Shown in pieces: positions 27,920 to 64,000 of a DNA stretch of 64,000 nt. This DNA is from a virus, in IMG/VR virus record IMGVR_UViG_3300045988_103014, positions 77,780-141,779 of that record. The stretch is one strand, 5' to 3'. How positions within the stretch are numbered: the first letter of the stretch is position 1; each line of letters starts with the position of its first letter. A program made the position numbers and the translations under genes. The notes under the pieces are model-generated. The model was not told the DNA's origin. It was given only the letters and a program-made list of their open reading frames with translations, and ran no database searches.

Positions 27920-30900
27920 TTAACGTACCTTAATCCAAATACGTCCATTAACTTTAACTGGGTCACGGTCTGCTAGTTCACCACCACCCCATTCTTCATA
28001 ATCAGGTACGCAAGAAACAGTACCAACAATGCGGTCTGGATACATTAAAACTTCTTCACGAGTCATAATGTCCACCTTGCCACCAGGAGCTGCACAAACA
28101 CAATCTCCAGGTTTATAATTATCGCGGTCTTGATATGGATAAGCAAGAACGCGTCCCGCAACTGCGATATTAGTTTTTGCTTCATCAGTCTCACCTTGAC
28201 TAAAGCCCCAAGTATCTGAAACAATACCTGCGAAGTGTTGAAGTCTTTGAGTAGTTTTTACCAAAGAATCATCTCCCACCTCAGTCATAACATAACCAGG
28301 TTCTTGAGAATCAGCTCGACGACACTCGGCATAGTCATTCCATACCGCACCAGTAACAGAGTCTCCTTGTAGCCAGAACTTACTCCATGCACTTGTTGTA
28401 CCATTGCCTTCAGCTGTGGCTGTATAGACATTGTTACGACCCCAGAAGCTAAATGCCATAAGACGCTTGTAATAAGCATCTCCTTGGCCATGGTTAAACT
28501 TAAGTACATGATACCAAGATGAGCCTGGACTATCAATATCACCCGCAGGGAATGATGTCTGAAGATATTGTAAACAATTGGATAAGCCTTTTGTGTTATT
28601 GATATTTAATACATTAGCTCCTGATGCAGTTGTCGCTGTAGCTGCATTACCAGTAATACTAATACCCCAAGTGCCACTATTATATACCAAACGTTTCCAA
28701 GCATTCCAGCCGCCTCGGTCAGAACTGCGTGTACGGAAATACATCTCATTATTCCAACCGTCTCCATAGATTTGATGTTTATATGCAGAATTCGTGGCAT
28801 AATCAAGGGTGGTAACAACTCCCCAACTTCCAGGTAAACCATGGTTGCTATAAGCAAATATCATGCCAGTAGCATCATTTACATTTTGTCCACTTCCAGA
28901 AGTCCACCATCCAGAATATCGTAAATAACGAGGGTCTGTATAGCTTGTAAAATTAGACGTATCTAAAACTCGTGTCCACGCGCGACCTTCAATATTACCT
29001 GAAGTGGTACGATACCACATTCCAGCTCCTGCTCCAACTCCTAATGCGAGCTGAGAAACCCATGATGATGTTACCCCATGATTCCAAGTTTGTGACCATG
29101 CATGTACCCATTGAGCGCCTCCCGTTGGATTATCTGTCGCAGCATAAATCATACCACAAGAAGATGCATTGTGCGCTGCCAATTGAGTAAATGTAACACC
29201 ACTACTATTACCATAATTGGCACTATTAAAAATTTTACATACATTACTAGTGCCGCTAAAATAACTTGTACCATTTACATGTAATCGATAGCTTGGTGCT
29301 GTTGTACCAAGGCCCATACCGGTAGCTGTCATAACAAGACCATTCGCGCCGTCTGAAGAATTTCGAGAAATACAGAAATTATTATCTGATTTTCTGTGAA
29401 TAGACCATGCATTGGCATTGGTGCCAGAGTCTGCGGTTGCGCCTAAGATAATTGTATTCCAAGTACCATCAGCACCTCTTAAACGGATACCTTCTCTATA
29501 GTTACCGCAAGTTGAGTTGATAATCATTTGTCCATTTGAACGAATACCATATGCGGCTCCAGTAGAAGTTCTTACATCTAGTCCATAATCATAAGTACTA
29601 TTTTTATCCATAATAATACCCCAGTCATTACTAGAGTAAGTTCTAAAATATGCCAAACCGTCATATTCATTATTGCTAGCATCGTTAATAACAACTAATT
29701 GGTCAAATTGTCCTCTTGAAGTTTTTATATTGTCTGTACCAGAAACGGTGCTACTTACATTACCAATAGGTGCAGTTGAGAAATCAATAACCCAATCTGC
29801 ATTATTCCAATATTTATATCCCCAGTTACTGAATCCAATTACCACATCTCTAATTTGAACTTGTGGATATGACCATACAGTACTTGCGCTACCAATCATA
29901 ACTGCAGATTTGTTATTTAATTCACCAAATGCAACAGTAAGATTCTGTTTATCTTGTCCATGATGACTTAAACATTCAGCGGTATAAGAATGCCAAACAC
30001 CATCATAATAATTGTATCCAGAAATGGCATAAGATACAGAAGTATTAGTAGCATAATTATAAATATCTACAATGAATTTCATCATAGTATTACTTCTATA
30101 TACTGGCAGTTGAATTCTTAAATAACCTGTAATAGAAGATGTAGTAGTTGTATAATGACCCCCACGAGGATAAGTCACAAAACCGTCCTTACCAGTTGCT
30201 TCGGCTCTCAAAGGACCATCAGCCCAAGTAAAACCACTTGAATCAATAGAAAATACATTTCTATTATTATGTCTTCTAAATACCCAACCACGATTATTTT
30301 GGTCATTCATAGTAAAATAGGTTGCCCAGTCTGCAGTAACCCAACCGTGAGTACCTAAGTTACCAGTGCCTCTAAACATAATTCCATATGATGAGGAATC
30401 GCTATATAGAGTAATACCACCATCTGTACTAGAGCCACCTCTGTTAGCATGTAACCAACGAGTAGACATTGAACTCCAGAAATAACTGCCATTACCATTA
30501 ACCCAAGCATTATTGCTTTCAGGCAATAGATTTTGAGTCCATAACTGACCGTGTATCCAGCTTTCACCATTAGCATATAATCTATATGCAACATTAGTAC
30601 CATTGATGCCGATAGAACTATTAACAGTCATGTGACCTTGAGCACTAATAGAAGCAACATTTCCAGTGCCAGTATTTCTAAATACCCATCCACGTCCAGT
30701 AGTATTTGACATGGTAAAGTATGTTGCCCAGTCCGCGGTAACACTACCATGTGTCCCCATATTACCAGTACCACGGAAGAAAATACCATAACTAGTATCT
30801 TTATTACCATATAAAGTAATACCACCATCAGTCGATGAGCCAGCAACATTAGCCATAATCCATTGTGAATAAGTGTTATTCCAATAATTAGAGCTTAATC

Positions 30901-33860: not shown

Positions 33861-33898
33861 ACAAAAATAAGGGGGAGATGCTAAATTGCATCTCCCCC
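33861..33898 (-). terminator. Rho-independent terminator after the 236-aa gene
   Basis: GGGGGAGATGCTAAATTGCATCTCCCCC followed by a U-run (TTATTTTTGT) on the minus strand. Confidence 0.75.
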
Positions 33899-33906: not shown

Positions 33907-34617
33907 TTATACTTCGTACCAATAAACCTGAAACTCTCTTTCAATAGCTGCTAATCTATCGTAGATTGCATCTAAGGTGTCTGATTCGTACGCATATTTA
34001 TCACTTAAAGCGTAATAAGACTCACGAATGTCAAAGTCCAATTCGCTCTTTACGAAATTTCCTTCTGAATTCTTAACATAGTATACACCAGGCTGATATA
34101 ACTCAGGAGTAAGCTCAACTCGATAATAATCAAGAACATTCATACCGTTTAAGACGGTACTTGTAGAGGAAAGGGTATTAAGATTATAAACGAGTTTCTT
34201 ACCTGTTACATCGGTTTTGAAGAAACGAATTGAGTAGGTGACTTCACCTGCGGCCTTCGTTGCCTCACCCTCAATGCACCAAGGAATAATCATCTTGTTC
34301 TCTTCTCTGAATGTAACAACATCATAATAAGGAACAACATAAAAACGACCTTCTTGTGCGGCATTGATGTACTGGATTACACAGCACGTTTCAGCCAAAT
34401 CTTGGTTATCAAAATATCTATCAACGATGAAGAACACCGTTTCTGAGTTGTGGTCGAAACGCACACTCAGAAACTCTGGTGCTTCAATCGTTCTAGAATT
34501 CAAATCTATGTTATAGATACTCTCAGACTTAGGGAGTAAAGCAGCTAACTGTGGTACGTTTCCGCCATCAGTTAAAGCGAACAGATTGGCGAAAAATTCT
34601 TCACTTGAAGTAACCAT
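33907..34617 (-). CDS. Tail fibre / baseplate-associated protein, paralogous to the N-terminal domain of the upstream 675-aa protein
   Basis: 236 aa. SD AAGGAG 9 nt before the ATG. Shares the FIVDR(F/Y)(Y/F)D...KMII.W...AG...RFF domain with the gene at 34644-36671. Confidence 0.55.
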   Translation of the reverse strand: MVTSSEEFFANLFALTDGGNVPQLAALLPKSESIYNIDLNSRTIEAPEFLSVRFDHNSETVFFIVDRYFDNQDLAETCCVIQYINAAQEGRFYVVPYYDVVTFREENKMIIPWCIEGEATKAAGEVTYSIRFFKTDVTGKKLVYNLNTLSSTSTVLNGMNVLDYYRVELTPELYQPGVYYVKNSEGNFVKSELDFDIRESYYALSDKYAYESDTLDAIYDRLAAIEREFQVYWYEV

Positions 34618-34643: not shown

Positions 34644-36671
34644 TTATACTACGTAGAAGATTTCACTAACAACTGAATCAGTTGTTTCATTCTTATGGTT
34701 AGTTAACTGACAGTAATACTTACCAGTCTTGGTAGGAACGAATGTTGACTTAGTCTCTCCTTCAAGAGCTGTATCACCTTCAATGACAGCAATATCATCA
34801 GTAGTTTGATACCACTGATAAGTTACTTCATCACTAATGTTCCAAGTATTCTTCCAGTTCTCCTCTAAAGTAACATGAATCTGAGTTGTCAAGGCAGTTC
34901 CATTAGAGAAGTCGACCTTGGTTTCGTCAGTGTCTTTATGAGGATACTCGATAACTGGCTTAACAGCTGCGTAAGATACGCGGCACTCTGAACTACCAGT
35001 CTTAACATACTTAAGGTTCTTATGATTGTAAACAACAACCATATACTTACCTTCAACTCCCTTAGGAGCTGCCATAAGTTCAGCTGTATTAGTAAGAGTT
35101 AATGAAGCCTCTCCAGCTCCCTCAATTCTAATCCAATCAGCATCCTCAATAGTATGCTCTACACCATCTTCATCAAGTTCATAATTAACTTTATTACCAG
35201 TAGACTCGTTACCAGTAGTAGGGTCAATTGCTCTCTTGTACCAAACGTAGATAAGCTCACCCTCTTTGGTTCCGTTTGCCTCTGGGTTTGAAACTTCAAC
35301 AGAAAGAGTTACTGAAGAAGCATTTGTGTCCTCTGTTACTACGTTAATTCCTAAGATTTCTCTTGGAGTTAAGTTAATATCAATAGTAGCAGGAGTAGGC
35401 ATTGGAATGATACAGATAACTGACTTCTGTTCTGCCATATTCTTACCACTTAAACGGTTTACTGCAACTGCATTGTAAGAACCAACGCGAGTGGCGACAC
35501 AAAGAGCAACTCTCTCATAGAATGTTGCCTGTCCAGCTGCGTAGTCATCTTCTGGAAGAGGTTCAGCATTAAAATACTCTTCGCCCTCTGCAGTAGTCTT
35601 TTTCTTATAAAGAACCTTCTTAGACTCTCTTAAAGCTCCGATGTGGTCAGCATCAGTGTTAACTTCTCTAAACTCAGTTCTTACTAATGCTCCAGTAGGG
35701 TCATCAGCACCACCAAGGTTAGGAGTCTGCTCATTTCCGTTATGGTCAACGAATCTCCAGTAGTAAGAAATGATACCACCATCGTTTGAACGAGCCTGTA
35801 CTTCGAGAGGATAAATCTCTGTGTTGTTTGGTAACTCGGTCTTGTAAAGCTTGTTCTCGATAAGGTCCTTATACTCGATAAGGTTTGTAATGTAAGTAGG
35901 TCTTTCTGCCTTTGCAACACCTGCAAGAGTAGTCTGGCTATTTACAATACGATTAGTTACAGCCTCATTGATTTCATCCTCAATCATGTATTTACCATTA
36001 CCAAAGATAAAGTCTAATGAAGACTTGATAGTTGCGGTCTGTGTTAAAGTAGACCAGCTATACTTAATTGTGCTTAAGTTCTTGTCGTCCCATTGGAAGA
36101 AACGAAGCGCAAATCTTAAAGTACCAGCGTACTTTGTAATATCGCTAGAAAGTGCCCAACCGATAATCATCTTATTTGGCTGACTCTCAATATCAACTAC
36201 CCAAGGAGTAGAAACACCAGATTCATTATTTGCGTTTGTCCACTGAATGTAGATGTCGCAAGTATCTAAGTCTGTGATATCATAGAAACGGTCAACGATG
36301 AAGTAAACGATTTCAGCGTACTTGTCACCCTGTACAGCAAAACCATTAGCCTGGAATGATGCAGGCATTGTAATTGCACGAGAATTACCATCTACACGAA
36401 GCACATCTTCATCAAGAGGAAGCATGGTATATCTACGTCCCTGAGAACGAAGCATATCATATGACTTTTCAGATGCGCCAAGCTGAATTAAATCTGGCAA
36501 ATATGAGAAATACTGCTCAATGGTTGTAATAGGGTCTTCAGCGATTAGAAGTCCTGTGTCGTCCTTTTCGCCTGTGCTCTGCAATACGCCCTCTTTAATA
36601 AGAGCCTGTGTAGCACTAGAGAACAATACAGAATACTTATCAGCGTTGGAACTATTTACATAAGTAATCAT
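34644..36671 (-). CDS. Tail fibre / receptor-binding-like protein with C-terminal Ig-like repeats
   Basis: 675 aa. N-terminal domain paralogous to the 236-aa protein. C-terminal beta-rich T/Y/W-rich repeats. Confidence 0.55.
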   Translation of the reverse strand: MITYVNSSNADKYSVLFSSATQALIKEGVLQSTGEKDDTGLLIAEDPITTIEQYFSYLPDLIQLGASEKSYDMLRSQGRRYTMLPLDEDVLRVDGNSRAITMPASFQANGFAVQGDKYAEIVYFIVDRFYDITDLDTCDIYIQWTNANNESGVSTPWVVDIESQPNKMIIGWALSSDITKYAGTLRFALRFFQWDDKNLSTIKYSWSTLTQTATIKSSLDFIFGNGKYMIEDEINEAVTNRIVNSQTTLAGVAKAERPTYITNLIEYKDLIENKLYKTELPNNTEIYPLEVQARSNDGGIISYYWRFVDHNGNEQTPNLGGADDPTGALVRTEFREVNTDADHIGALRESKKVLYKKKTTAEGEEYFNAEPLPEDDYAAGQATFYERVALCVATRVGSYNAVAVNRLSGKNMAEQKSVICIIPMPTPATIDINLTPREILGINVVTEDTNASSVTLSVEVSNPEANGTKEGELIYVWYKRAIDPTTGNESTGNKVNYELDEDGVEHTIEDADWIRIEGAGEASLTLTNTAELMAAPKGVEGKYMVVVYNHKNLKYVKTGSSECRVSYAAVKPVIEYPHKDTDETKVDFSNGTALTTQIHVTLEENWKNTWNISDEVTYQWYQTTDDIAVIEGDTALEGETKSTFVPTKTGKYYCQLTNHKNETTDSVVSEIFYVV

Positions 36672-36704
36672 ATTCTTATATCCCTATCCTTTCTTAAATT
36701 TTAT

Positions 36705-36737
36705 GGGGAAGGGAAAAGACCCTTCCCCGGATTTTTT
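36705..36737 (+). terminator. Hairpin with T-run oriented for the plus strand, lying between two minus-strand genes
   Basis: GGGGAAGGGAAAAGACCCTTCCCC followed by GGATTTTTT. Confidence 0.4.
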
Positions 36738-36791: not shown

Positions 36792-36989
36792 TTAGATTTC
36801 TCTCCAGTTCGCTACTTCACTCTCTGATACAATAACTGCGTCTTCAACTACAGTTTTACCATCGGTGAGTTTCTTACCAATTGCCGGTTTAACGCGAACT
36901 TTTACCATGGCAGGTACACCCTCCAAATGAATTGGAGTGGTGACCGTACCATTAGTGCCAAGATAAGTATATAACTTTTCAGCAGTCAT
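36792..36989 (-). CDS. Small beta-rich protein, hypothetical (tail-associated)
   Basis: 65 aa. SD GGAGG 6 nt before the ATG. Immediately downstream of the 2475-aa gene. Confidence 0.45.
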   Translation of the reverse strand: MTAEKLYTYLGTNGTVTTPIHLEGVPAMVKVRVKPAIGKKLTDGKTVVEDAVIVSESEVANWREI

Positions 36990-44461: not shown

Positions 44462-44504
44462 GAAATGAAAAAAACGGGAAGAAGAGGCAATTCTCTCCTT
44501 CCCG
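44462..44504 (-). terminator. Rho-independent terminator after the 590-aa gene, only about 30 nt upstream of the RBS of the 2475-aa gene
   Basis: CGGGAAGAAGAGGCAATTCTCTCCTTCCCG (imperfect stem) followed by a U7 run on the minus strand. Confidence 0.65.
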
Positions 44505-47194: not shown

Positions 47195-47236
47195 GGTTAA
47201 AAATTAAACTGGCTTGGCCTATTATAGCCAAGCCAG
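47195..47236 (-). terminator. Rho-independent terminator after the 1826-aa gene
   Basis: CTGGCTTGGCCTATTATAGCCAAGCCAG followed by TTTAATTTTTAACC on the minus strand. Confidence 0.7.
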
Positions 47237-47244
47237 TCATTTAA

Positions 47245-52731: not shown

Positions 52732-53076
52732 TTATACCTCCTCGTTATTATTGTCATAAGTGACATCAATAATAAGTCCGCCAGTAGAACAGTTTGAAAT
52801 AGCTCTCAAAGAATTACCATCAAAACTTAATGACGTAATCTGAGTGTTGTCGCCAAGATTTAACTCGTAGACACCAGTTGCCCCGATGATAACGGGGCTG
52901 GTGCTACTGTTTACGTAAAACTTGGTTCCAGGTAAAGCCTGAATTCCAATCTGCAAAATAGGCAAAACTGAGGAGAATACATTACCAGACACTAAAGTCT
53001 GATAAGTGGTATTAGGTGTATTATGGGTTTTATCAACATCGCTAAAATAGCGAAATTGTTTGATTCTTTTAGCCAT
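52732..53076 (-). CDS. Small beta-rich protein, hypothetical (tail-associated)
   Basis: 114 aa. SD GGAGGTTAAGGAG. Confidence 0.5.
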   Translation of the reverse strand: MAKRIKQFRYFSDVDKTHNTPNTTYQTLVSGNVFSSVLPILQIGIQALPGTKFYVNSSTSPVIIGATGVYELNLGDNTQITSLSFDGNSLRAISNCSTGGLIIDVTYDNNNEEV

Positions 53077-56000: not shown

Positions 56001-57416
56001 TCTTAGATGAATAGGAATAGTTTTATCAGATACTTTAGATTTCTTAGCACCCCAAATCGAAAAATCATTTTTAAGATTTGTAAGATTTGGCGTATTTTGG
56101 AATGAAGTAACTAAGTTACTACCGCCGAAGAAATAGGTTGTATCTGATGTATCAATTGCGCTTGAAGTGTGCGCGCCATCCACTTTTTCATAGTAGATAA
56201 GTGAGCTGTCCCATACACCTCTCGCAATTTCAAAACCACCATTGATTTTGATATAATACATGGAAGGAATATATCCTTTACCATTCTTAAACTCTTTACG
56301 CACATATCTATCTACTGTACCCTCGTTTACAATTCCAGTAAAAGGAGTCTGTACATAAGTTTTTTTCTTTTGGAATACAAAGTGTCCATCAAGGTCATAG
56401 AAATATTCAAACTCACCAAGCATATTCTTAATTTTATCTAGAACTGAGGTAATTGCTTCACCAACCTTAGCAGTTAAGTCACCTGGATATGTTAATTCAG
56501 TTAAGCGATATCCACAAACTTCTCCATAAGACACCTTGGCAACAGAATAGATTACTTCATCAGAAACCGAACTTCCGTCCATTGCTTTTACTGTTGTAAT
56601 TTTCTCCTCTGTGCCGGAAAAGTTCTGACTCATACGAGGGTCATAATGACCTTTCTCGCCAATGTCTTTGAGACGAACCGGCTTACCATTATCTACATCC
56701 CAATATTCTTTCTCACCATCAAAAGTAATATTTTCAATCTCATTTGTATAAAGATTGATAACCATATACAATGGTTTTTCTTTTGAGCCTCTGTACTCCA
56801 TAAGCTCCAAACCGAATTCGTCAATATCATTGATAATGATGTTTTGGAATGGCTCATTGCCGTATTTATGAACTGCTTCTCGGATAATAGTTTTAATTGG
56901 AATATCTTCTGTTGTTGATACCAATTTACCCTTTTCGTCTCTGGTATAAATTTTAACCTTACCAAAGTCTGCTGACAAGGACTCAATCATACCACCTAAT
57001 TCGCCATTTAACTTACACATCTTATCTTTTCCATTTACAGAAATAGAATAGCTATTTACAGATTGAGTTGTATTAAATGTGGATAAAATAAAAGTACCTT
57101 GTTTAAACCAGATTATGTCGTCATACTTTGGATTGATTGAATTTTTTAATCCGATAAACAATTTTATTTTCGTATTTAATCCCCAGTAGTAGTCATTGAT
57201 GTTAATATCATTTGCGACCATGCTCAATGAAAATGAGCGGCGCACTGAAGATGTTCCATCAACATTTAAACTACCCTGGGTTACTCGCCCTGAAATTTCT
57301 TCCATGGGCTCTTCTTGCATATTTAAAGCAACAATACGAGCGTACACAGTACGCTCGCGTTGCTCGGATAATGCTTTTAGGAAATCTTCATCTAAAAATG
57401 GATTTGCATTCATCAT
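53094..57416 (-). CDS. Large (1440 aa) tail / baseplate structural protein, possibly a Tal-like tail-tip protein
   Basis: Start overlaps the upstream stop (ATGA). No confident motif. Position and size suggest a baseplate hub / tail-associated protein. Confidence 0.5.
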   Translation of the reverse strand: MMNANPFLDEDFLKALSEQRERTVYARIVALNMQEEPMEEISGRVTQGSLNVDGTSSVRRSFSLSMVANDININDYYWGLNTKIKLFIGLKNSINPKYDDIIWFKQGTFILSTFNTTQSVNSYSISVNGKDKMCKLNGELGGMIESLSADFGKVKIYTRDEKGKLVSTTEDIPIKTIIREAVHKYGNEPFQNIIINDIDEFGLELMEYRGSKEKPLYMVINLYTNEIENITFDGEKEYWDVDNGKPVRLKDIGEKGHYDPRMSQNFSGTEEKITTVKAMDGSSVSDEVIYSVAKVSYGEVCGYRLTELTYPGDLTAKVGEAITSVLDKIKNMLGEFEYFYDLDGHFVFQKKKTYVQTPFTGIVNEGTVDRYVRKEFKNGKGYIPSMYYIKINGGFEIARGVWDSSLIYYEKVDGAHTSSAIDTSDTTYFFGGSNLVTSFQNTPNLTNLKNDFSIWGAKKSKVSDKTIPIHLRYAIDKKPHTYTTSDGLKMFTTRTYQEILDELTEKYEQGKTPNANGLPEEWWDVHEWAEVYRIRTGAYPAETIGKYCKPTSVRIFDYFATGGSYGNNQDYTVNTDDIFYYVDTNQVASIHGVCGHTYTYYIQQAQNGIGAYIHDPHIPDKVLENLDGTTLYDGKTEIISEVDWREIIYQMAVDYNAHCHEDDFMLNVYQHNEGLFNEDGTTGYESYYTDMEGFWRDLYNPRPAIAGGADFIRLINECINALENPSIGCLTNLQMKELGEEFFIYFKKNVEKDRYYLKTENDYDDATAYKSAMRGFWEKIRSKSTPDDGIQTFYTWDSVNEVYVQGKFQDHVKLDAIPSLSAMQNGTRRLYQSSGSYTYYELKRYDEYPYYDKKKDISLVDLQPDKTYYYATKASDLTLNNYTSKVWDYTTTLVRSDYGSDAEFNAAKTVGPNAKFKIGYKYFEYGGYERVGTLKQGVQYYTREETSEGVYKYTAAVKLSPDVTYYSEDPGISTSDIRVQSFTRGHSYYSKVNGQRVSAFTYAQDAVYYENAGFKEVLDLTQCTMSDQFFYLQDAITPDAEGVKSLIAVEKEHDSYFFPVDHSIVYYHRVPQNEVKNGKYYPLFKVYDIDAYNSVANNTYRQNAFNRLKEIYGTAMFTQQFEVMKNTPAQYGSAELCEIALLDYQMDIAEEELVVDLQNLQTNYNNELAAAIREDRDARMSDQDLANGAAALIDTCNKRLDYLTAQKYATSFKVVDVLKEFEYNKRYYTRKQIGYDNNGDPEYEYLRFNCYTFKTNDALYDAPTYNLNTGWAMDLKNDPANLIFWFDFLDTDGDVAKYSAKTVGNRPKAVNDEKVKAIYYRDTPSVIFVNADKWEEYRDAKPGYSYVRLTYDLENLFTISSQGKTAHSQLEDFLYQFTCCTESISMTTIPVYHLQPNTRIAVRDDNSHINGDYLISRLTIPLTYNGTMNISAVKAADTIY

Positions 57417-60400
57417 GACTTCATTTCCTCCTCAAAATCCTTTTTCTCTATTGCTACATACATAATTAGTTCTGCATAATATTTATCCATTGCCTCTCTC
57501 GCTTGGTCGCAGTTGCGCAACAAGTTTTGAAGTGTTGGAGTATTGTTAATAACATCGTTATCAGACAAAGAGGCGATAGATTTCTTTGCAACATTCCAAG
57601 CCGTATAAGCACTATCGTATAATTGTCTCTTTGCAGAAGCAACTGTAGCATTACCATCTGCGCCATTCTCGCAAGAGAAAATCATAACTCTTGTTTGATA
57701 TGACATTTCACACACAAGACCTTTTCCAATTGTTAAGGTCTTAATATTCAAATCAGGTCCCTCTAAAATATACTCATGGTCTTCCAAGATTACATCACCG
57801 TCACCAGTGTTGAATGAATAGAAATCATCTTGCACATAAAAGATTTCGTGAGTTAAACCATCGAGCATCTTTGTTGTTGCATAAGGATGTTCTTCATCTC
57901 CACTCATATAATATCCATGGCGGAAGTTTGCGTCTGTAAACCACTGTGTATATTTATAGTAGTCTTCATATGTATAATCAGTACGTGGAGTACATAATTG
58001 ATACAAGTAAGCTGGGTTGTACATATCTGGAGTCATCTCTAAAGTACAATCCATATCAAAGAAGTAACCAATTCTATCTCTAGTATGAGTAATGTTTTCA
58101 TTACGCTCTTCATCCCACTCTTCCCATTCTTCATGCACCTGTTTCTCAAATACTTGCTGAACATAACGAGGAGAAATTTTTACCTTAAAAATTTTAGCGA
58201 TAGAAGTTTTTACATCTTCAATACATTTAATAATATCGTGAGTATCCTCATACTTGCCATTATAAGGATTGTAAGTTGTCTTTGTTGGTGTACCAAACCA
58301 CATTTTAGTTGGATAATCATCAATGCGAGATGAAATATACAAATCGAATACATTTGCCATATCACTCTTATAACCATAAGTTACAATACCAGTAGGATGT
58401 TCTTGAACTCCATTTGGATTGTCTGCGGTTTTAGTCATTGGATTTACTAAATTAGGCTGGTCTGCTGGTAATACGATACGTTTAATACCAGTAGGAAGTT
58501 CAACATAATATGAACCACTTGCACCGATGGTGATTTGCTCATCATCTAACATAAAAATAGTTCCTGGTTTTGCTTCACGGATATCTACTGAGTAAGCGGT
58601 CTTTTTGTTAAGCAGTCCAGAAGCATAAGAAATTTTTCCTGCTAACTGAGAAATACCAATTGCCTTATCTACTGGCAACGCATTAACATAAGTACCTGCG
58701 GCACCCGTGTTACTAATAACAAGAACGCCAAGACTTGTAACATGCTTACTAATATCTAAAGGTGTCGCTACACCATTTTTGTAATAAACCGCATTGTTAA
58801 TACGACTAATCAACTCATCATTGAGCTGCATATTTACATCAAGTTCTTTATAGTTCATAATTGAGTTTGCAATCAAATCTAAATCTGCACTATGACCAGC
58901 AATATTAACTGATTGATATCTCGTTTGAACTACATCTGACTCAACTTCAACAAATCCCATTTCCATCAATGAGTCATAAGATGCGTCGGCTACTTCATAT
59001 GCCGTTGCTGAAAATGTATGCAGCATGCGGCCTAGGGTATCATTAGGCGACATTGAAACATTCAAAAGTCTAACGATAAAGTTACCTTCTGCCGGAGACT
59101 TAAATAATTTAGGTTCTCCGTTTGTAAGCCACTTTAATACTTCCATTTTGAAAGTACGCTCTGCTGTTATATTCTCAGACACTAGCTGAGTTGTTGGTAA
59201 CTCAAGTCCTAAATCATCCATTGACATAAATTGATGATTTTCGTCTCCAAGGTAAGAAATCAAACCTGAGATTGGGAATTCGTGATAGTCAATATTTCCA
59301 TTTCTAAAAATGAATGGATACTTACTTCCAATAGTATCAGTTTTTTGTTCGATAACATCACGCTTAAATGATGATACTTTTGGATTGTATTTAATTTTTA
59401 ATTGGCGCATTCCGTCGTATAGGAACGCATCTTCGAAATCAGCTGTTACCACAGGTGCTTCAATTCGGTCAGAACGAAGGCCTGCAACGTTGTACTGCTG
59501 AATTGCATATCTATACTGGACACCCTGTTCAATACTGTAATCTTTCCATAAGCGACGAGATGGTACTTGCGCTTGCAATGTGAAACTACCCATATCACGC
59601 CATGCCCAACCATCATTACTTGCGGCTCTTACAATATAAAACATACCAGTTACTTTCTTTTCAGTTTGATTATCAGATACACTATGATTGGTTAATATTA
59701 AATCGACAAAGCCTTCTTCGTAATTCAAATTAGCTGATAAAGTAACATCCATATCCGGCAAAACTGTTCCAGCTTTAATGATACGATGGCGAGCTGATTC
59801 AACAACTAAACCATTGTTTGTGGTAACTGTAAATGTTAGATAATATGATTTATTGGATTCTAGTTCATCAGGAATTACGAACGTCTCATGCGACTCTCTA
59901 CTTGAATCATCATCGTAAGTATGATGAATGATATCCCCACTGTCTGCGATTACTGCTCCACCTGCCTCTTTTAAGACAAATCTACTTGAAGCCATTTTCT
60001 CAGTAGCATCGCCACCTCTTTGGCTATAAATTCCAGTGTATGAATACAAGTGATTACTTGTTACATTAGAATTCAAGCCGGCGATTGATAGCGCCGGCTT
60101 GGTTGTGTACTTAGCAACAGCAGTTGATGAATAATAACCAACAGTTCTTGTCTCATCAACGAATGCTATCTGTACTTTATAGAATTGTCCTACTGTCAAA
60201 TTCAATTCTGAAATATTGAATGTAACATAACTATTTGGACCGATTTCATAATCGAATAATCTATCATTATTTGATGAGTCATGTAACATAACTACATCGG
60301 TCCATAATAGTGTGTTACTTTGGATAGTTTTAATTTTAATGGCAAAACCACTAATATCAGCACTACCCACAGTTTTATTTAAGGCAAAAGGAATCGTGAT

Positions 60401-60490
60401 TTTTGTCTCACGGTCTGTACTATCGACAGGATAAATTGAGTAGAAAGAAGGCACCGTTCCATCCAGATGAGGTGGATATAACTTTGCCAT
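57413..60490 (-). CDS. Large (1025 aa) tail / baseplate structural protein, possibly an extended Dit-like distal tail protein
   Basis: Beta-rich, non-helical, so not a tape-measure protein. Translationally coupled to the 1440-aa gene. Confidence 0.45.
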   Translation of the reverse strand: MAKLYPPHLDGTVPSFYSIYPVDSTDRETKITIPFALNKTVGSADISGFAIKIKTIQSNTLLWTDVVMLHDSSNNDRLFDYEIGPNSYVTFNISELNLTVGQFYKVQIAFVDETRTVGYYSSTAVAKYTTKPALSIAGLNSNVTSNHLYSYTGIYSQRGGDATEKMASSRFVLKEAGGAVIADSGDIIHHTYDDDSSRESHETFVIPDELESNKSYYLTFTVTTNNGLVVESARHRIIKAGTVLPDMDVTLSANLNYEEGFVDLILTNHSVSDNQTEKKVTGMFYIVRAASNDGWAWRDMGSFTLQAQVPSRRLWKDYSIEQGVQYRYAIQQYNVAGLRSDRIEAPVVTADFEDAFLYDGMRQLKIKYNPKVSSFKRDVIEQKTDTIGSKYPFIFRNGNIDYHEFPISGLISYLGDENHQFMSMDDLGLELPTTQLVSENITAERTFKMEVLKWLTNGEPKLFKSPAEGNFIVRLLNVSMSPNDTLGRMLHTFSATAYEVADASYDSLMEMGFVEVESDVVQTRYQSVNIAGHSADLDLIANSIMNYKELDVNMQLNDELISRINNAVYYKNGVATPLDISKHVTSLGVLVISNTGAAGTYVNALPVDKAIGISQLAGKISYASGLLNKKTAYSVDIREAKPGTIFMLDDEQITIGASGSYYVELPTGIKRIVLPADQPNLVNPMTKTADNPNGVQEHPTGIVTYGYKSDMANVFDLYISSRIDDYPTKMWFGTPTKTTYNPYNGKYEDTHDIIKCIEDVKTSIAKIFKVKISPRYVQQVFEKQVHEEWEEWDEERNENITHTRDRIGYFFDMDCTLEMTPDMYNPAYLYQLCTPRTDYTYEDYYKYTQWFTDANFRHGYYMSGDEEHPYATTKMLDGLTHEIFYVQDDFYSFNTGDGDVILEDHEYILEGPDLNIKTLTIGKGLVCEMSYQTRVMIFSCENGADGNATVASAKRQLYDSAYTAWNVAKKSIASLSDNDVINNTPTLQNLLRNCDQAREAMDKYYAELIMYVAIEKKDFEEEMKS

Positions 60491-60496: not shown

Positions 60497-60889
60497 TTAA
60501 GCCTCCTCTGTACCATCCTTTAACATAAACATAATAGCGTCCATCTGAGCGTTTGTAAGCTCGATGTCATCAGCAAGACTATTGATATCAACATAGTGAA
60601 CATCAATATTCTCCTCAAGGTTCATAAGTTCAGTGAACTCTTCATTAGCCTTCTGCTCATTCTCAGGCTTAACTACATAACCCTGACCATCCTCAGTCTC
60701 TTCGCCATACTTCTGAATCAACTCTACACGAGCCTTCTCAATAGCTTCAGCTGCTGACTGGAACTTTGCTGTGTTCTTCTTGATAGTAAAGCTTAACTTA
60801 ATAGGAAGCTTCTGTGTACTATCTGCTTCTGCAAAGGCTCTTAAAAGACCTTCTGCAATATTATAAATTTCAAAATTTTTGAATGTCAT
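60497..60889 (-). CDS. Small acidic protein, paralog of the upstream 159-aa gene; possible tail / fibre assembly chaperone
   Basis: 130 aa. SD AAGGAGG 9 nt before the ATG. C-terminus ...LTNAQMDAIMFMLKDGTEEA parallels ...LSTDNLQAIMFMIDDDAND of the neighbour. Confidence 0.5.
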   Translation of the reverse strand: MTFKNFEIYNIAEGLLRAFAEADSTQKLPIKLSFTIKKNTAKFQSAAEAIEKARVELIQKYGEETEDGQGYVVKPENEQKANEEFTELMNLEENIDVHYVDINSLADDIELTNAQMDAIMFMLKDGTEEA

Positions 60890-60922: not shown

Positions 60923-61402
60923 TTAAACTACTTCGGTATGTTCACCAGTAGCTAAATCCATCTTACCAGTTTTTTCATTCTCAGTAAGCATTTTAAAAAC
61001 TTTTCGAGCATCATTAGCGTCATCATCAATCATAAACATAATTGCTTGTAAATTATCAGTAGATAAATCACAATCTAACTGCGCTAACTGCAATAGAGAT
61101 AACTCCATAATAGTTACCTCTTGTTTAATATTTTCCAAATTTTCCAACTCTTCATTGATTTTGTTAACATTCTCAGGAGAGATAGAAATCTCATTTGGAT
61201 TTTCTTCACTTGGAACTCCATATCTTTGAATAATACCATTGCGCAAATCTAAAATCTCTTTTGCTAATTTTCTAATAATATTAAAATTTTTTTGAATATA
61301 AAAATTATAAATTACAGGAACATAATCTTGTTGCCCAATAGTGTTTTTCTCGATAAGCTCATAAAGTTCTATAATTTCACCATTTGTAAAAACTCTTACC
61401 AT
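60923..61402 (-). CDS. Small acidic protein, paralog of the 130-aa gene; possible assembly chaperone
   Basis: 159 aa. SD AAGGAG 8 nt before the ATG. Confidence 0.5.
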   Translation of the reverse strand: MVRVFTNGEIIELYELIEKNTIGQQDYVPVIYNFYIQKNFNIIRKLAKEILDLRNGIIQRYGVPSEENPNEISISPENVNKINEELENLENIKQEVTIMELSLLQLAQLDCDLSTDNLQAIMFMIDDDANDARKVFKMLTENEKTGKMDLATGEHTEVV

Positions 61403-61424
61403 AAGCTTTTCTCCTTTAACTCTT

Positions 61425-64000
61425 TTAATCTATAGCTACCTGAACTGCGTGTCCACCAACGCTTGGATGTCGTCCTGTGTCAGTAGAACCAGTACTTGTA
61501 GTCGTTGAACTCTCTTCCTCTACAGGCTCTAGACCAACATAGTTAACCTTTCTATCAACCCAATGTCGTGTTGCTTTTGTTAAAGCAGTACAAGTAGTAA
61601 TGTCACCTTCATCAAAATATACATAGTTTACAACTTGTGCATCTTTACCAGCCAACCATTCACCAAGCACACCAGCTAAATTCCAATAGTGGTAATGAAT
61701 AGTATTAACAGATTGAACCACCGTTGCAGTATCAAAACTATACCAAGCATAACCAAAATTAGCACTTTTATCAACACATTGGTCATCGCCAAATTGCAAA
61801 TAGTCATGCACAATACATTTTGTAAATTCAGCTTCTGTTGCTGTTAATTTACCGTTCTTATTAAAGCTATAAGAACCGCCACTGCTTCCACCTGCTGAGA
61901 GCTTGTCGCTACTAATAGTAATACCTGCGATGTCACCAGTACCAGTAACATGTAATTTACCAGCAATCCAAGTTTCACCTGTAGATGCAGCAACCTTAAA
62001 ATTGCTACCATTTAAACTAAATCCTGAAGTACCTAGATATACTGTTGAGCCACCCCAACCTCCTGTACCATAAGTAAATGATGTTGAGTCAATCTTAAAT
62101 GGTCCAATCGTACCACCAACAGTAGCCGTTAAATTTGTACAAGTAACTGAGCCATCCCATTCAACTGTGAATTCAGCATTTTTTGTTCTATCACTATTGT
62201 TACCAATAATTTGTAAAGGTTTAGAACCTGAATCCGAGTTGATAACTATCTGACCCTTTTCAGCATTAACAGCTTTAATTGTAAATTTATAACTTGTAAT
62301 ACGACCTTGCGCCAAGTCAATTTTTGTACCAGCACCTGCAGTTGTTCCATTCTCAGGTACATAGTCTAAAGTTTGTAAATAGTAACTGCTACCAACTACC
62401 ATTAAAGGCTTATATTTCTTAGCAGTATTATCATAGCCATAAACCTTAAACAATGAACTGGTACTGCTATTGATAATAACATAACCCTTAGAACCATATG
62501 TTGTAAATTTACCATTTTGCAAATCTAAACGAGTTCCAGTTGGTTTACTATTACTACCCTCTTTTGCATTAGGATTAAAATTAGAAGACTGTAAATAATA
62601 AGCAGAAGTCTGTCCACTATCTCCAGTCAATTCAGCACTTTCTCCATCGGTATCATTTCGTGCGCTACCCTTAATCACAAATAATACATGATTAGTGGCA
62701 TCAGCCAACCTAAAGAAGGTTGCTGTACTAGTGGCAATTTCTACACGTCCACAAGTACCATATGAAGTAAATTTACCATTTTGCAAGTCTAAACGAGTAC
62801 CAACTGGCCATTTAGTAACATTGCCTGAATTATCTTTGGTCGTAGTAGAATCAAAATTAGATGACTGCAAATAATAAGATGATACTGTTGGAGTAGCATC
62901 TACACCATCTGACCCATCTGAATCAGCATTATCACTATTATCTGCTTTTTTACCACCCTTAATAATAAATAATACATTATTATCAGCATCAGCTAAACGG
63001 AAAAATGTTGTATTGCCTGTGGCAAACTGAATTCTACCATACTTGCCAAAAGAATAAAAATATCCATTTTGCAAGTCTAATCTAGTACCTTGTGGATTTT
63101 TCCCACTTGGAGTATACCCTAAACTCTGTAAATAGAATGAGGTAGGGGTAGAAACTTCATCTGTACCAGTTGGTTTATTATCTGTATCTTCTTTCTGTGC
63201 GGCGGCTACGTCCACAGAAATCTTTAACATATCTGAGTACTTAAAGTTAAAATAATTATTGATTGGAGTTGTACCATCCGCCTTTACAGGATTTGTACGT
63301 CCTTTAATTACAAACAAGTTCTTTGAATCTTTAGATGTATCAATTTCAACCTGTCCAGCTGCGCCGTACATTTTCATAGAAGAACCTGTGCTAATTTTGT
63401 TAGCCGCAGTAGGTCCGTCTAAGTCAATTTCCATACCAATACGTTGTTTGCTAATTGACCAAATACCTGAGCTAATAGTGCCATGATTACCATCAAAAAT
63501 AATCTGACCTTGACCAGATTTACCAATAAAACCTGTGCCGTCTATTTTCCAACCGAAACTTTGAATACCCTTATTAAAACCATATAAACCTAACAATGTA
63601 GAACTAGAAATGGCATCTGTAACGTCACCCATCATCACGCCTTCAAAACGATTTTCACTATCTTTCTTTCCAGCTCCAATCATTGTTGATAATATTGTAC
63701 CATTTTCTTCGTCAATTGTCAAACCGCCGTCCCAAGCGTTGAGCATTGTAGAAGAAAAAGCATCTCGTGTCATCATGATTGGTTGTGACCATACGAGAGT
63801 ACCGTTTCTTGTTGCAGTGACATAAATATCGCGGTCTGTTTTACCGTCTAATTCAGTATACATCGAAGGAACGGTGATTGTATTCGCGGCGGTTAGTCGA
63901 GGGAAGAATGTTGGCGCATGATTTTTTGCAGCCTCAACTCCAATAGGAGTTTCATCTTCAGGATTTTCCTCATTGTATGTCCAACCATCAATTACTACTG
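61425..64000 (-). CDS. Large Ser/Thr/Gly-rich tail structural protein with four to five tandem ~85-aa repeats; N-terminus lies beyond the window end
   Basis: The reading frame stays open upstream of the ORF-track Met at 63863 through nt 64000 (...IDGWTYNEENPEDETPIGVEAAKNHAPTFFPRLTAANTITVPSMYTELDGK), so the gene is 5' truncated by the window edge. Confidence 0.65.
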   Translation of the reverse strand, partial: VVIDGWTYNEENPEDETPIGVEAAKNHAPTFFPRLTAANTITVPSMYTELDGKTDRDIYVTATRNGTLVWSQPIMMTRDAFSSTMLNAWDGGLTIDEENGTILSTMIGAGKKDSENRFEGVMMGDVTDAISSSTLLGLYGFNKGIQSFGWKIDGTGFIGKSGQGQIIFDGNHGTISSGIWSISKQRIGMEIDLDGPTAANKISTGSSMKMYGAAGQVEIDTSKDSKNLFVIKGRTNPVKADGTTPINNYFNFKYSDMLKISVDVAAAQKEDTDNKPTGTDEVSTPTSFYLQSLGYTPSGKNPQGTRLDLQNGYFYSFGKYGRIQFATGNTTFFRLADADNNVLFIIKGGKKADNSDNADSDGSDGVDATPTVSSYYLQSSNFDSTTTKDNSGNVTKWPVGTRLDLQNGKFTSYGTCGRVEIATSTATFFRLADATNHVLFVIKGSARNDTDGESAELTGDSGQTSAYYLQSSNFNPNAKEGSNSKPTGTRLDLQNGKFTTYGSKGYVIINSSTSSLFKVYGYDNTAKKYKPLMVVGSSYYLQTLDYVPENGTTAGAGTKIDLAQGRITSYKFTIKAVNAEKGQIVINSDSGSKPLQIIGNNSDRTKNAEFTVEWDGSVTCTNLTATVGGTIGPFKIDSTSFTYGTGGWGGSTVYLGTSGFSLNGSNFKVAASTGETWIAGKLHVTGTGDIAGITISSDKLSAGGSSGGSYSFNKNGKLTATEAEFTKCIVHDYLQFGDDQCVDKSANFGYAWYSFDTATVVQSVNTIHYHYWNLAGVLGEWLAGKDAQVVNYVYFDEGDITTCTALTKATRHWVDRKVNYVGLEPVEEESSTTTSTGSTDTGRHPSVGGHAVQVAID
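62276..63386 (-). repeat. Tandem approx. 72-93-aa protein repeats (YYLQSSNF...GTRLDLQNGKFTSYG..GRVEIATSTATFFRLADATNHVLFVIKG)
   Basis: Four clear copies (aa about 243-530) plus a degenerate fifth (about 170-212) in the partial gene at 61425-64000. Confidence 0.65.

What the first reader, a model, noticed from the sequence alone, without database searches (positions are those of the whole stretch)
27920..64000. About 36 kb of consecutive giant tail-fibre / receptor-binding-like genes in terminator-delimited units
From nt 27920 to the window edge the minus strand holds 13 predicted genes, five of them encoding proteins of 1025 to 2475 aa. They are beta-rich and Gly/Ser/Thr/Asn/Tyr/Trp-rich, with fibre-type motifs. 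No capsid, portal, sheath or tape-measure-like protein lies among them. Hairpin terminators at 27888, 33871, 44475 and 47209 split them into at least five transcription units, each carrying its own large fibre gene. That many independent adhesin or depolymerase candidates is unusual for a Gram-positive phage and suggests a multivalent or modular host-recognition apparatus.
Basis: partly seen in the sequence, partly recalled or inferred. Interest (0 to 1): 0.7.

Follow-up and report, generated by a model that had tools for sequence, protein, structure and literature searches.

The report
Phage tail-tip and multi-fibre gene module
This 36 kb stretch is the tail-tip and host-recognition module of a large, uncultured gut or rumen phage: structural tail-tip proteins (one is the baseplate hub) come first, then several fibre-type proteins, and only the last fibre is swapped between close relatives.

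Summary
The minus strand from 27920 to the window edge carries an unbroken run of genes, five encoding 1025-2475 aa, separated by GC-rich hairpins at the stated coordinates.

Corrections:
- There are 14 genes, not 13. A conserved 65-aa gene lies at 36792-36989.
- The gene at the window edge is truncated. Relatives encode about 1650 aa there, directly after a 3074-aa tape measure protein.
- There is a fifth hairpin at 36704.

The upstream half is tail-tip structure, not independent adhesins.
- The 1025-aa protein sits where the distal tail protein normally does. It starts with three FN3 domains.

The downstream half is fibre-like.
- The 1826-aa protein has a Phage_fiber_2 repeat.
- The 590-, 2475- and 1944-aa proteins share one N-terminal motif, probably a docking motif.
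- The 2475-aa protein combines a marginal CotH-like match with BspA-type leucine-rich repeats.
- The 1944-aa protein has T4 gp37-like repeats and is mosaic between close relatives.

The layout recurs in dozens of related metagenomic contigs, and its core proteins have over 1500 homologues. It is the standard design of a large uncultured clade, so it is a new variant of a known kind, of moderate interest.

The parts
61425..64000 (-). C-terminal 857 aa of a truncated giant protein, about 1650 aa in relatives, encoded directly after the tape measure gene. It has a conserved segment at about aa 13-190, four to five tandem ~90-aa repeats, and a variable end.
   Evidence: The frame is open to the window edge. 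The L003 homologue is 1654 aa and follows a 3074-aa PF10145 tape measure protein. Internal repeats span aa 233-560. Identity to the closest relative is only about 50%, against 80-89% for neighbouring genes. No Pfam, PHROG or NCBIfam match.
60923..61402 (-). 159-aa acidic protein rich in helix-favouring residues, a paralogue of the next gene. Possibly an assembly chaperone (inference).
   Evidence: Matches phrog_1401, E 1.8e-8. 31% identical to the 130-aa protein, E 1e-14. L003 and L004 have only one copy; L006 has two.
60497..60889 (-). 130-aa acidic protein rich in helix-favouring residues (phrog_1401), conserved across the clade.
   Evidence: 81-86% identical in L003 and L004.
57413..60490 (-). 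1025-aa tail-tip protein in the position usual for a distal tail protein (Dit). It has three N-terminal FN3-like domains (aa 1-340), a conserved core (about aa 350-530) and a variable C-terminal half. Its stop overlaps the hub gene's start (ATGA).
53094..57416 (-). 1440-aa baseplate hub or tail-associated protein. The hub core is formed by aa 1 to about 700 plus aa 1270-1440. A variable ~570-aa region is inserted between them.
52732..53076 (-). 114-aa small protein (no helix-favouring composition), conserved next to the hub across most of the clade. Role unknown.
   Evidence: 29-89% identical in most related loci. No family match.
47245..52725 (-). 1826-aa fibre protein with a conserved N-terminus (aa 1-60), ~100-aa repeats (aa 1212-1567) and a Phage_fiber_2 repeat near the C-terminus.
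   Evidence: Pfam PF03406 at 56.3 bits, cut-off 22. Matches phrog_381 and phrog_6202 'tail fiber'. Weak match to phage Mu tail fibre S, 5yvq. Repeats. Conservation pattern.
47207..47238 (-). Conserved hairpin after the 1826-aa gene: 13-bp stem, then TTTAATTTTT.
   Evidence: Present in L003 and L004 with compensatory G-C to A-T changes.
46342..47145 (-). 267-aa protein with a conserved N-terminal half. Candidate adaptor or short fibre (inference).
   Evidence: aa 6 to about 150 are 35-50% identical across distant relatives. The N-terminus resembles the shared fibre motif by eye, but the motif HMM did not detect it.
44563..46335 (-). 590-aa fibre-like protein carrying the shared N-terminal motif.
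   Evidence: N-terminal motif HMM hit, E 1e-5, aa 1-51. Weak repeat similarity to the 1826-aa protein. 73% identical in L003 and 40-46% in L004.
44475..44504 (-). Canonical intrinsic-terminator-like hairpin (12-bp stem followed by T7) after the 590-aa gene.
   Evidence: Conserved in L003 and L004.
37008..44435 (-). 2475-aa giant protein. It has the shared N-terminal motif (aa 11-51), a large conserved body that includes a CotH-like domain (about aa 1323-1440), weak Listeria-Bacteroides repeat matches, and a BspA-type leucine-rich repeat domain at the C-terminus (aa 2312-2406).
   Evidence: LRR_5 at 39.7 bits, cut-off 27.7. PDB 4fs7, E 3e-9. CotH PF08757 at 24.8 bits, cut-off 23.8, when aa 560-1750 were scanned alone; 6 of 21 relatives also match CotH, 13 match LRR_5 and 3 match Flg_new. 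TIGR02543 weak match. Motif HMM hit, E 7e-5. 1109 clusters of relatives, mostly 2200-2900 aa. Matches phrog_14959.
36792..36989 (-).
   Evidence: Called at the same position in L034 and L035.
36704..36729 (-). GC-rich hairpin with no U-tract on the coding strand. It may be a 5' or 3' RNA structure rather than a terminator.
   Evidence: Conserved in L034 and L035.
34644..36671 (-). 675-aa protein. Its aa 83-222 are paralogous to the next gene, and it is well conserved between close relatives. Candidate adaptor or baseplate-peripheral protein (inference).
   Evidence: 34% identical to the 236-aa protein, E 2e-18. 87-88% identical in L034 and L035. No family match.
33907..34617 (-). 236-aa paralogue of the 675-aa protein's N-terminal domain. 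It is the most conserved gene of the module and lies next to the most variable one.
   Evidence: 96-98% identical in L034 and L035.
33871..33898 (-). Canonical terminator-like hairpin (11-bp stem, 8 G-C pairs, then TTATTTTTG) after the 236-aa gene.
   Evidence: Conserved in L034 and L035 with altered stems.
27920..33754 (-). 1944-aa mosaic tail fibre (probably 1939 aa from ATG 33739). It has the shared N-terminal motif, T4 gp37-like shaft repeats (aa 940-1180), a variable distal part, and a conserved 150-aa C-terminal module (WNDYAE...GRIWIKV).
   Evidence: Matches phrog_20242 'tail fiber', E 4e-25. tblastn hits annotated gp37 and long-tail-fibre genes of T4-like Acinetobacter phages. Only 125 homologues, each covering 4-57% of the protein. 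The N- and C-termini are shared by 54-92 homologues, the middle by 3-20. Segment swaps relative to L034 and L035. The C-terminal module has no Pfam or PDB match.
27888..27912 (-). Hairpin after the last fibre gene, with no U-tract on the coding strand. A holin gene follows at 26654-27049.
   Evidence: Holin phrog_13712, E 3e-32.

Best explanation
The region is the distal part of the tail gene cluster of a large long-tailed phage from an uncultured gut or rumen clade. It is read from the window edge leftwards.

Structural tail tip. Directly after the tape measure gene, which lies just outside the window, come:
- a giant repeat-bearing protein, truncated by the window edge;
- one or two small acidic proteins;
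- a 1025-aa protein with N-terminal FN3 domains, in the position usual for a distal tail protein;
- the 1440-aa baseplate hub;
- a 114-aa protein.

Projecting proteins. These follow the tail tip:
- an 1826-aa fibre;
- a 267-aa plus 590-aa pair;
- a conserved 2475-aa protein ending in a leucine-rich-repeat adhesin module;
- a conserved 675-aa plus 236-aa pair;
- a terminal fibre of about 1940 aa.

Proposed working. Three of the projecting proteins (590, 2475 and 1944 aa) share one N-terminal motif. I infer that it docks them to equivalent sites on the baseplate. Most proteins have a conserved N-terminal part, presumably for assembly, and a variable distal part. The last fibre is exchanged piecewise between close relatives and is the most likely determinant of strain-level host range. 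The conserved hairpins most likely attenuate or punctuate late transcription, setting the relative amounts of the components. They need not define fully independent units.

Shown: the gene content, the hub fold, the fibre and LRR domains, the marginal CotH-like match, the shared motif, the mosaic pattern and the conservation of the layout. Inferred: the docking role, trimeric fibre structure, which protein binds which receptor, and terminator function.
For: - Tape measure gene immediately upstream, with the same gene order, in relatives at 50-90% protein identity.
- Three FN3 domains in a confident model of the 1025-aa protein.
- Phage_fiber_2 repeat and tail-fibre PHROGs in the 1826-aa protein.
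- Tail-fibre PHROG and T4 gp37-like repeats in the 1944-aa protein.
- An HMM built from the N-termini of 1944-aa homologues finds only the N-termini of the 590-aa (E 1e-5) and 2475-aa (E 7e-5) proteins among 474 sequences. All decoys scored E > 1.
- LRR_5, CotH and Listeria-Bacteroides repeat matches in the 2475-aa family.
- Mosaic terminal fibre beside a neighbour that is 96-98% conserved.
- Four of the five hairpins are conserved in relatives, with compensatory changes.
- A holin gene just downstream and a divergent replication module confirm the phage context.
Against: - No structure was obtained for the 1826-, 590-, 2475-, 675-, 236- or 1944-aa proteins, so their fibre nature rests on short motifs and annotated relatives.
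- The Dit assignment of the 1025-aa protein rests on position only. Fold searches returned only FN3 hits, and no Dit family matched.
- The post-tape-measure giant, the 114-, 159/130-, 267-, 675- and 236-aa proteins have no assigned fold.
- The motif HMM did not detect the 267-aa protein.
- Two of the five hairpins lack a U-tract on the coding strand.
- Sigma-70-like promoter matches are not enriched (73 against 65.7 +/- 8.5; 83 against 75.3 +/- 8.3), so separate transcription units are unproven.
- The host is unknown.
Confidence: 0.7

Rival explanations
1. One reading: every large gene is an independent adhesin or depolymerase, each in its own transcription unit. That would give a five- or six-valent receptor-binding apparatus.
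For: There are five to six giant, beta-rich proteins. Fibre motifs occur in several of them. Conserved hairpins lie between groups of genes. Even the hub and the 1025-aa protein carry variable regions that could contact the host.
Against: The core of the 1440-aa protein is a baseplate hub. The 1025-aa protein and the post-tape-measure giant are conserved tail-tip proteins with thousands of homologues. The first hairpin-bounded unit contains four giant genes, and two units contain none. No enzymatic depolymerase family was found by sequence search. Promoter-like sites are not enriched.
Confidence: 0.12
2. The refuting view: the genes are essentially ordinary baseplate or tail-tip proteins that are unusually large, and only the last gene is a true receptor-binding fibre.
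For: The order and most of the sequence of every gene except the last are conserved across the clade. The hub is identified. The 2475-aa protein is conserved over about 2000 aa in distant relatives.
Against: The 1826-aa protein has a genuine tail-fibre repeat. The 590- and 2475-aa proteins share the N-terminal motif of the mosaic fibre. The 2475-aa family ends in adhesin-type LRR modules that differ between members. The 590-aa protein diverges faster than its neighbours: 73% against 88% identity in L003, and 40-46% in L004.
Confidence: 0.15
3. The 2475-aa CotH-like / LRR protein is not a receptor-binding protein for the bacterial host. It is instead a virion-borne enzyme or an adhesin for another surface, such as mucus or host-animal glycoproteins.
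For: CotH is an atypical kinase family, and the match is above the Pfam cut-off. Phage CotH domains fused to variable lectins are reported but unstudied (PMC8008677). BspA-type LRR and Listeria-Bacteroides repeats are typical of bacterial cell-surface adhesins. The family motifs DSRGKN and YDxD are nearly invariant.
Against: The CotH score is marginal (24.8 against 23.8 bits), and neither searching the CotH-region segment alone nor the full-length profile returned a solved CotH structure. Catalytic residues were not aligned to a characterised kinase. The protein carries the same N-terminal motif as the fibres and sits among fibre genes, so a conventional receptor-binding role is the simpler reading.
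Confidence: 0.1

Closest known systems
Tail-tip and baseplate modules of Gram-positive long-tailed phages (tape measure, Dit, Tal, then peripheral receptor-binding proteins), for example Staphylococcus phage 80alpha and Lactococcus phages TP901-1 and p2
   Different: A ~1650-aa protein and a small acidic protein lie between the tape measure gene and the Dit-position gene. The Dit-position protein starts with three FN3 domains. The hub has a 570-aa variable insertion and no detectable lysin domain. The components are several times larger than usual, and five or more projecting proteins follow the hub.
Phages carrying several receptor-binding proteins (from general knowledge: CBA120 and G7C tailspike sets, Klebsiella PhiK64-1, Staphylococcus K/phi812, Listeria A511)
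   Same: Several fibre-type proteins are encoded in a row. Their N-terminal parts are conserved and their distal parts variable. A shared N-terminal motif suggests a common attachment principle.
   Different: No beta-helix or depolymerase domains were detected. Only the last fibre is freely exchanged between close relatives, while the others are clade-conserved. No adaptor hierarchy has been demonstrated.
The phAss-1 group and Enterococcus phages H1, EF1, EF5 and VRE9 (about 135-140 kb, DNA polymerase III alpha, very long tape measure proteins)
   Same: The hub and the 1025-aa protein have homologues at 24-32% identity. The replication module is of the same kind: Pol III alpha, RecJ, RecD-like helicase, NrdD. 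The tape measure protein is 2673-3149 aa (PMC10607447).
   Different: In Enterococcus phage H1 the hub gene is the last of the structural module and the giant genes precede it. Here the fibres follow the hub. phAss-1 uses genetic code 15, while this window reads in the standard code. No DNA-level similarity was found.
T4 gp37-type long tail fibre distal subunits
   Same: The repeated segment at aa 940-1180 of the 1944-aa protein matches annotated gp37 and long-tail-fibre genes of T4-like Acinetobacter, Pseudomonas and Shewanella phages at 28-51% identity. It shows the same mosaic evolution.
   Different: Only a short shaft repeat is shared. The N-terminal anchor, the C-terminal 150-aa module and the genomic context are unrelated. 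No gp38- or gp57-type chaperone was seen.
CotH-domain proteins of phages (noted in PMC8008677 as fused to hypervariable C-type lectins, unstudied)
   Same: A CotH-like domain lies inside a presumed virion surface protein that has a variable C-terminal binding module.
   Different: The binding module here is a BspA-type LRR, not a C-type lectin. No DGR-like template and variable repeat pair was found in 24000-64000. The protein is 2475 aa and conserved across more than 1100 clusters.

Membership tests
Baseplate hub / tail-associated protein (Mu gp44, T4 gp27, Tal N-terminal fold): the 1440-aa protein | Multi-domain gp27-like hub fold | tested here: met
Baseplate hub / tail-associated protein: the 1440-aa protein | Encoded downstream of the tape measure gene in the tail cluster | tested here: met
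   In L003, L004 and L005 the order is tape measure (PF10145), then 3 genes, then the hub. In the window itself the tape measure gene lies beyond the edge.
Baseplate hub / tail-associated protein: the 1440-aa protein | Cell-wall-degrading domain (applies to 'Tal' in the strict sense) | tested here: not met
   No lysozyme, peptidase or glucosaminidase family was found in Pfam, PHROGs or NCBIfam. The term 'hub' is therefore safer than 'tail-associated lysin'.
Distal tail protein (Dit): the 1025-aa protein | Dit fold (tube-like N-terminal domain plus galectin-like domain) or a Sipho_tail family match | tested here: inconclusive
   No Pfam, PHROG or PDB sequence match. Fold searches were swamped by the three FN3 domains. 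The conserved core at aa 350-530 was not searched on its own.
Distal tail protein (Dit): the 1025-aa protein | Gene immediately upstream of the hub gene | tested here: met
   The genes overlap by 4 nt at 57413-57416. The same order holds in all related loci.
Phage tail fibre: the 1826-aa protein | Phage_fiber_2 repeat (PF03406) | tested here: met
   56.3 bits against a cut-off of 22, at aa 1709-1747. Also matches phrog_381 and phrog_6202 and Mu fibre S, 5yvq, at E 0.0035. Only one repeat copy was found.
Phage tail fibre: the 1944-aa protein | Similarity to experimentally known fibre families | tested here: met
   phrog_20242 'tail fiber', E 3.8e-25. tblastn hits gp37-type fibres of 69 phage records. 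The BppL_N match is below the cut-off, 23.7 against 25.8 bits.
Phage tail fibre: the 1944-aa protein | Modular, mosaic evolution with conserved ends | tested here: met
Phage tail fibres in general | Trimeric, elongated beta-structure exposed on the virion | not testable with these tools
CotH kinase family (PF08757): the 2475-aa protein | Profile match above the curated cut-off | tested here: met
   24.8 bits against 23.8, E 1.8e-5, for aa 1323-1440 when aa 560-1750 were scanned alone. 6 of 21 relatives also match. The full-length scan had missed it, so the match is marginal.
CotH kinase family: the 2475-aa protein | Conserved catalytic and metal-binding residues, and kinase activity | not tested
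   The family-invariant motifs DSRGKN and YDxD are present, but they were not aligned to a characterised CotH. Searching the segment alone found no solved CotH structure.
BspA-type leucine-rich repeat (LRR_5): the 2475-aa protein | Profile match and similarity to solved LRR_5 structures | tested here: met
   39.7 bits against 27.7. 4fs7 at E 3e-9 with the single sequence and 2e-29 with the family profile.
Tailspike or depolymerase (beta-helix, pectate lyase, glycosidase) | Any enzymatic family match in the large proteins | tested here: not met
   None was found in Pfam, PHROGs or NCBIfam. These are sequence searches only, so divergent beta-helices could be missed.
Intrinsic (Rho-independent) terminators | GC-rich stem-loop followed by a U-tract on the transcribed strand | tested here: inconclusive
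   Met for 44475 and 33871, moderate for 47207, and no U-tract for 36704 and 27888. Four hairpins are conserved in relatives with compensatory changes; the one after the last fibre gene is not. Termination activity cannot be tested here.

The most novel reading that the evidence does not exclude
The clade-wide 2475-aa protein may be a virion-displayed CotH-type enzyme joined to an interchangeable LRR adhesin. In that case this widespread group of gut and rumen phages would carry an atypical kinase, or a CotH-fold ligand binder, on the tail. It would act on the bacterial envelope or bind non-bacterial surfaces such as mucus, rather than acting as a passive fibre. Together with the shared N-terminal motif, this would describe a plug-in baseplate architecture not yet characterised in any cultured phage.
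Probability: 0.12. Interest if true: 0.8.

Novelty: new variant of a known kind. Interest (0 to 1): 0.45.

Why it matters
The module belongs to a phage clade that is very common in animal-gut and rumen metagenomes. More than 1500 hub homologues and more than 2500 homologues of the 1025-aa protein were scored, and the 2475-aa protein has more than 1100 clusters of relatives. Its only cultured relatives found in the phage collection searched are a few distant Enterococcus phages.

This work gives a first parts list for its tail tip. The hub is located. A shared N-terminal motif that may serve as an anchor is defined. The one freely exchanged fibre is identified as the likely host-range determinant. 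A conserved giant protein combining a CotH-like domain with leucine-rich repeats is flagged.

These points would guide host prediction, fibre engineering, and the choice of targets for structural work. They do not reveal a new biological principle.

Tried and rejected
- A megablast search of 22 kb of the region against 50,697 phage records found nothing.
- An exact-sequence look-up of the window-edge protein found no record.
- Single-sequence PDB searches with the 1944-aa protein, and profile searches for the 1440- and 1025-aa families, gave no match.
- The profile of the conserved C-terminal 150-aa module of the terminal fibre matched no PDB chain or Pfam family. I had guessed an intramolecular-chaperone or Peptidase_G2 relationship from the WNDYAE motif, and that is not supported.
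- IMG/VR pattern scans with the 1944-aa and 675-aa proteins found no relatives.
- Pfam and PHROG scans of the full-length post-tape-measure protein of two relatives gave no hit.
- The CotH segment found no solved CotH structure and no annotated plasmid CotH gene.
- tblastn of the 1826-aa protein against the phage records found nothing.
- A diversity-generating retroelement was considered because phage CotH proteins can be DGR targets. No template and variable repeat pair exists in 24000-64000, so this was rejected.
- A bacterial adhesin island or contractile injection system was rejected because of the flanking holin gene, the phage replication module and the tape measure gene in relatives.
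- A literature search for the morphology of the Enterococcus relatives gave only a table entry listing them as 'Myoviridae', without micrographs.
Full report
**Observation**

The minus strand from 27920 to the window edge is one uninterrupted run of genes. Three corrections are needed.
- The '812-aa' ORF stays open in frame up to base 64000. The gene is therefore truncated by the window. Its homologue in the closest relative is 1654 aa.
- A 65-aa gene at 36792-36989 was missed. It is called at the same place in two relatives.
- The 1944-aa gene most likely starts 15 nt further in, at ATG 33739, where its homologues start.

The large proteins contain 34-48% Gly/Ser/Thr/Asn/Tyr/Trp.

Terminator-like sites are about twice as frequent as in shuffled sequence. 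For four of the hairpins the corresponding intergenic regions of relatives carry hairpins at the same places, with compensatory stem changes. The site after the variable last fibre gene is not conserved. Four of the five are therefore conserved, probably functional elements. On the coding strand only three have a convincing or moderate U-tract.

**Context**

The plus strand at 1-24432 is a replication and nucleotide-metabolism module: DnaB, RecJ, a RecD-like helicase, DNA polymerase III alpha and NrdD. A holin gene follows the last fibre gene.

There is no DNA-level match in 50,697 phage records. By protein similarity the nearest described phages are the ~140-kb Enterococcus phages H1, EF1, EF5 and VRE9 and the recoded gut phage phAss-1, at 24-32% identity.

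Metagenomes hold far closer relatives. The 1440-aa protein has at least 1527 homologues and the 1025-aa protein 2588, none with a Pfam domain. Related contigs of 100-220 kb occur in IMG/VR (28 loci). They also occur in 48 contigs of metagenome-assembled genomes from rumen, rabbit, chicken and human samples, binned mostly as Bacilli, Erysipelotrichaceae, Mollicutes or Clostridia. This hints at low-GC Bacillota hosts but does not prove it.

**Gene order in relatives**

In the closest relative (L003 and L035, one 51.9-kb contig) and in L034 and L004 the order is:
1. tape measure protein (3074-3090 aa, PF10145);
2. a giant of about 1450-1650 aa;
3. a 131-aa protein;
4. a protein of about 1000 aa;
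5. the hub homologue;
6. a protein of about 113 aa;
7. a fibre of about 1630-1820 aa;
8. a protein of about 230-268 aa;
9. a protein of about 583 aa (split in L004);
10. an LRR protein of about 2460-2510 aa.

In L034 and L035, which extend further, a 65-aa, a 675-aa and a 236-aa protein and then a variable giant fibre follow.

The window therefore begins about 2.4 kb downstream of the tape measure gene. A looser version of the same order is seen in nearly all IMG/VR loci.

**What the upstream proteins are**

The 1440-aa protein is therefore the baseplate hub. It carries a ~570-aa variable insertion that is replaced in L004. No lysin domain was detected.

The 1025-aa protein was modelled directly (pLDDT 83.3). 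It starts with three FN3-like domains, followed by a strongly conserved core and a C-terminal half that varies across the clade. Fold searches returned only FN3 hits. Its role as the distal tail protein is therefore suggested only by position, because its stop overlaps the hub gene's start.

The truncated giant has a conserved segment, four to five tandem ~90-aa repeats and a fast-evolving remainder (about 50% identity where its neighbours show 80-89%). Its fold is unknown. The 159- and 130-aa proteins are acidic paralogues rich in helix-favouring residues (phrog_1401).

**What the downstream proteins are**

- *1826 aa.* It has a Phage_fiber_2 repeat well above the cut-off and matches tail-fibre PHROGs.
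- *1944 aa.* It matches a tail-fibre PHROG. Its internal repeat at aa 940-1180 matches annotated gp37-type long-tail-fibre genes of T4-like phages. It has only 125 homologues, each covering 4-57% of its length. Its first ~500 and last ~150 residues are shared by 54-92 of them, and the middle by 3-20. Against L034, aa 388-1500 are 76% identical and the distal 440 aa are replaced. Against L035, only three short segments are shared. The adjacent 236-aa gene is 96-98% identical in the same genomes. This is the classic signature of an exchangeable receptor-binding fibre.
- *Shared motif.* An HMM built from the N-termini of the 1944-aa homologues finds only the extreme N-termini of the 590-aa (E 1e-5) and 2475-aa (E 7e-5) proteins among 474 sequences. 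All decoys scored above E = 1. Three proteins therefore share one N-terminal module, which I interpret as a common docking element.
- *2475 aa.* It is conserved over about 2000 aa in distant relatives and has 1109 clusters of relatives, mostly 2200-2900 aa long. Its C-terminus is a BspA-type LRR, preceded by weak Listeria-Bacteroides repeat matches. When aa 560-1750 were scanned alone, aa 1323-1440 matched Pfam CotH just above the gathering score. Six of 21 relatives do the same. CotH domains in phage proteins have been noted but not studied (PMC8008677).
- *No enzymes found.* No beta-helix, pectate-lyase or glycosidase family was detected in any protein.

**How it probably works**

The upstream genes build the tail tip around the hub. 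The downstream genes supply projecting proteins that attach through conserved N-terminal parts and present variable distal parts. The terminal fibre is the component that recombines between close relatives, so it most likely sets strain-level host range. The clade-conserved 1826- and 2475-aa proteins probably recognise more widely shared surface features.

The 675/236 pair, which is conserved and paralogous, and the 267-aa protein may be adaptors. That is inference only.

The hairpins divide the window into five groups: seven genes from the truncated giant through the 1826-aa fibre, then 267+590, 2475+65, 675+236, and 1944. Promoter-like sites are not enriched and two hairpins lack U-tracts. 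I therefore favour attenuation within late transcription over fully independent units.

**Comparison and novelty**

The design matches the known scheme of tape measure, Dit, hub and receptor-binding proteins, and it recalls phages that carry several receptor-binding proteins. It differs in the following ways:
- extra genes lie between the tape measure gene and the hub;
- the Dit-position protein begins with FN3 domains;
- the hub carries a large insertion;
- the components are very large (about 11,800 codons in 36 kb);
- three projecting proteins share an anchor motif;
- one conserved giant combines a CotH-like domain with leucine-rich repeats.

In Enterococcus phage H1 the hub gene ends the module and the giant genes precede it. 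The arrangement seen here is therefore specific to this metagenomic clade.

I rate it a new variant of a known kind.

**Limits**

- Only two structures could be predicted, and the hub model is of a homologue rather than the window protein.
- Host, tail morphology, virion composition, terminator activity and any CotH activity are all untested.

Noticed in passing
window 63864-64000 (minus strand): The reading frame of the '812-aa' gene continues without a stop to the window edge. The gene is truncated, and relatives encode 1445-1654 aa here, directly after a 3074-3090-aa tape measure protein. At about 1.5 A per residue (general knowledge) that predicts a tail of roughly 460 nm.
   Followed up: yes
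window 36780-36788 and 33847-33855 (minus strand): The motif T[TA]GGCCAAGAT[TA]TG[AT]TTA[TA]AAA occurs twice, in the intergenic regions before the 675-aa and 1944-aa genes, and is conserved in L034 and L035. The regions before the 2475-aa and 675-aa genes also share a ~60-nt element (GGNCAARG...TAGTTTTT, a small hairpin, then the large hairpin). It may be a phage-specific promoter or regulatory cassette.
   Followed up: partly
L010, L013, L015, L017-L021, L023, L024, L029, L030 (IMG/VR relatives): In many relatives the homologues of these giant genes are broken by in-frame stop codons when read in the standard code. L021 has no ORF of 250 aa or more downstream of the hub. This fits stop-codon recoding, as reported for phAss-1 (code 15). 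The window itself reads cleanly in code 11.
   Followed up: partly
window 60497-61402: The small acidic protein is duplicated here (159 and 130 aa, 31% identical). L003 and L004 have one copy and L006 has two.
   Followed up: partly
window 27920-28370 (C-terminal 150 aa of the 1944-aa protein): The module 'WNDYAE...SDT.G...GRVL...GP.G.V..MT.EE...GRIWIKV' always sits at the extreme C-terminus of about 80 otherwise different giant fibres. It has no Pfam or PDB match. It could be an unrecognised fibre assembly or chaperone domain, or a receptor-binding knob.
   Followed up: partly
window 9579-10487 (plus strand): A 302-aa protein with a 'phage tail lysozyme' domain (PF18013, E 5e-17) is encoded inside the replication module, far from the tail genes and on the opposite strand.
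   Followed up: no
L037-L084 (genome-contig hits): Phage contigs of 100-165 kb from this clade are binned into metagenome-assembled genomes labelled Mollicutes, Tenericutes, Bacilli, Erysipelotrichaceae, Lachnospiraceae, and even Methanobrevibacter, Bacteroides and Endomicrobiaceae. Such labels are unreliable as host evidence.
   Followed up: no
window 53094-57416, aa 700-1270 of the hub: The hub carries a Tyr-rich, poorly conserved insertion of about 570 aa between its conserved N- and C-terminal parts. It is shorter and only 27% identical in L004, and absent in the ~830-aa homologues. The hub itself may therefore present a variable, host-facing domain.
   Followed up: partly
window 26654-27049 and 27046-27801 (minus strand): A holin (phrog_13712) lies just downstream of the fibre genes. 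The 251-aa gene between the last fibre and the holin has no family match, and no endolysin was identified next to the holin.
   Followed up: no
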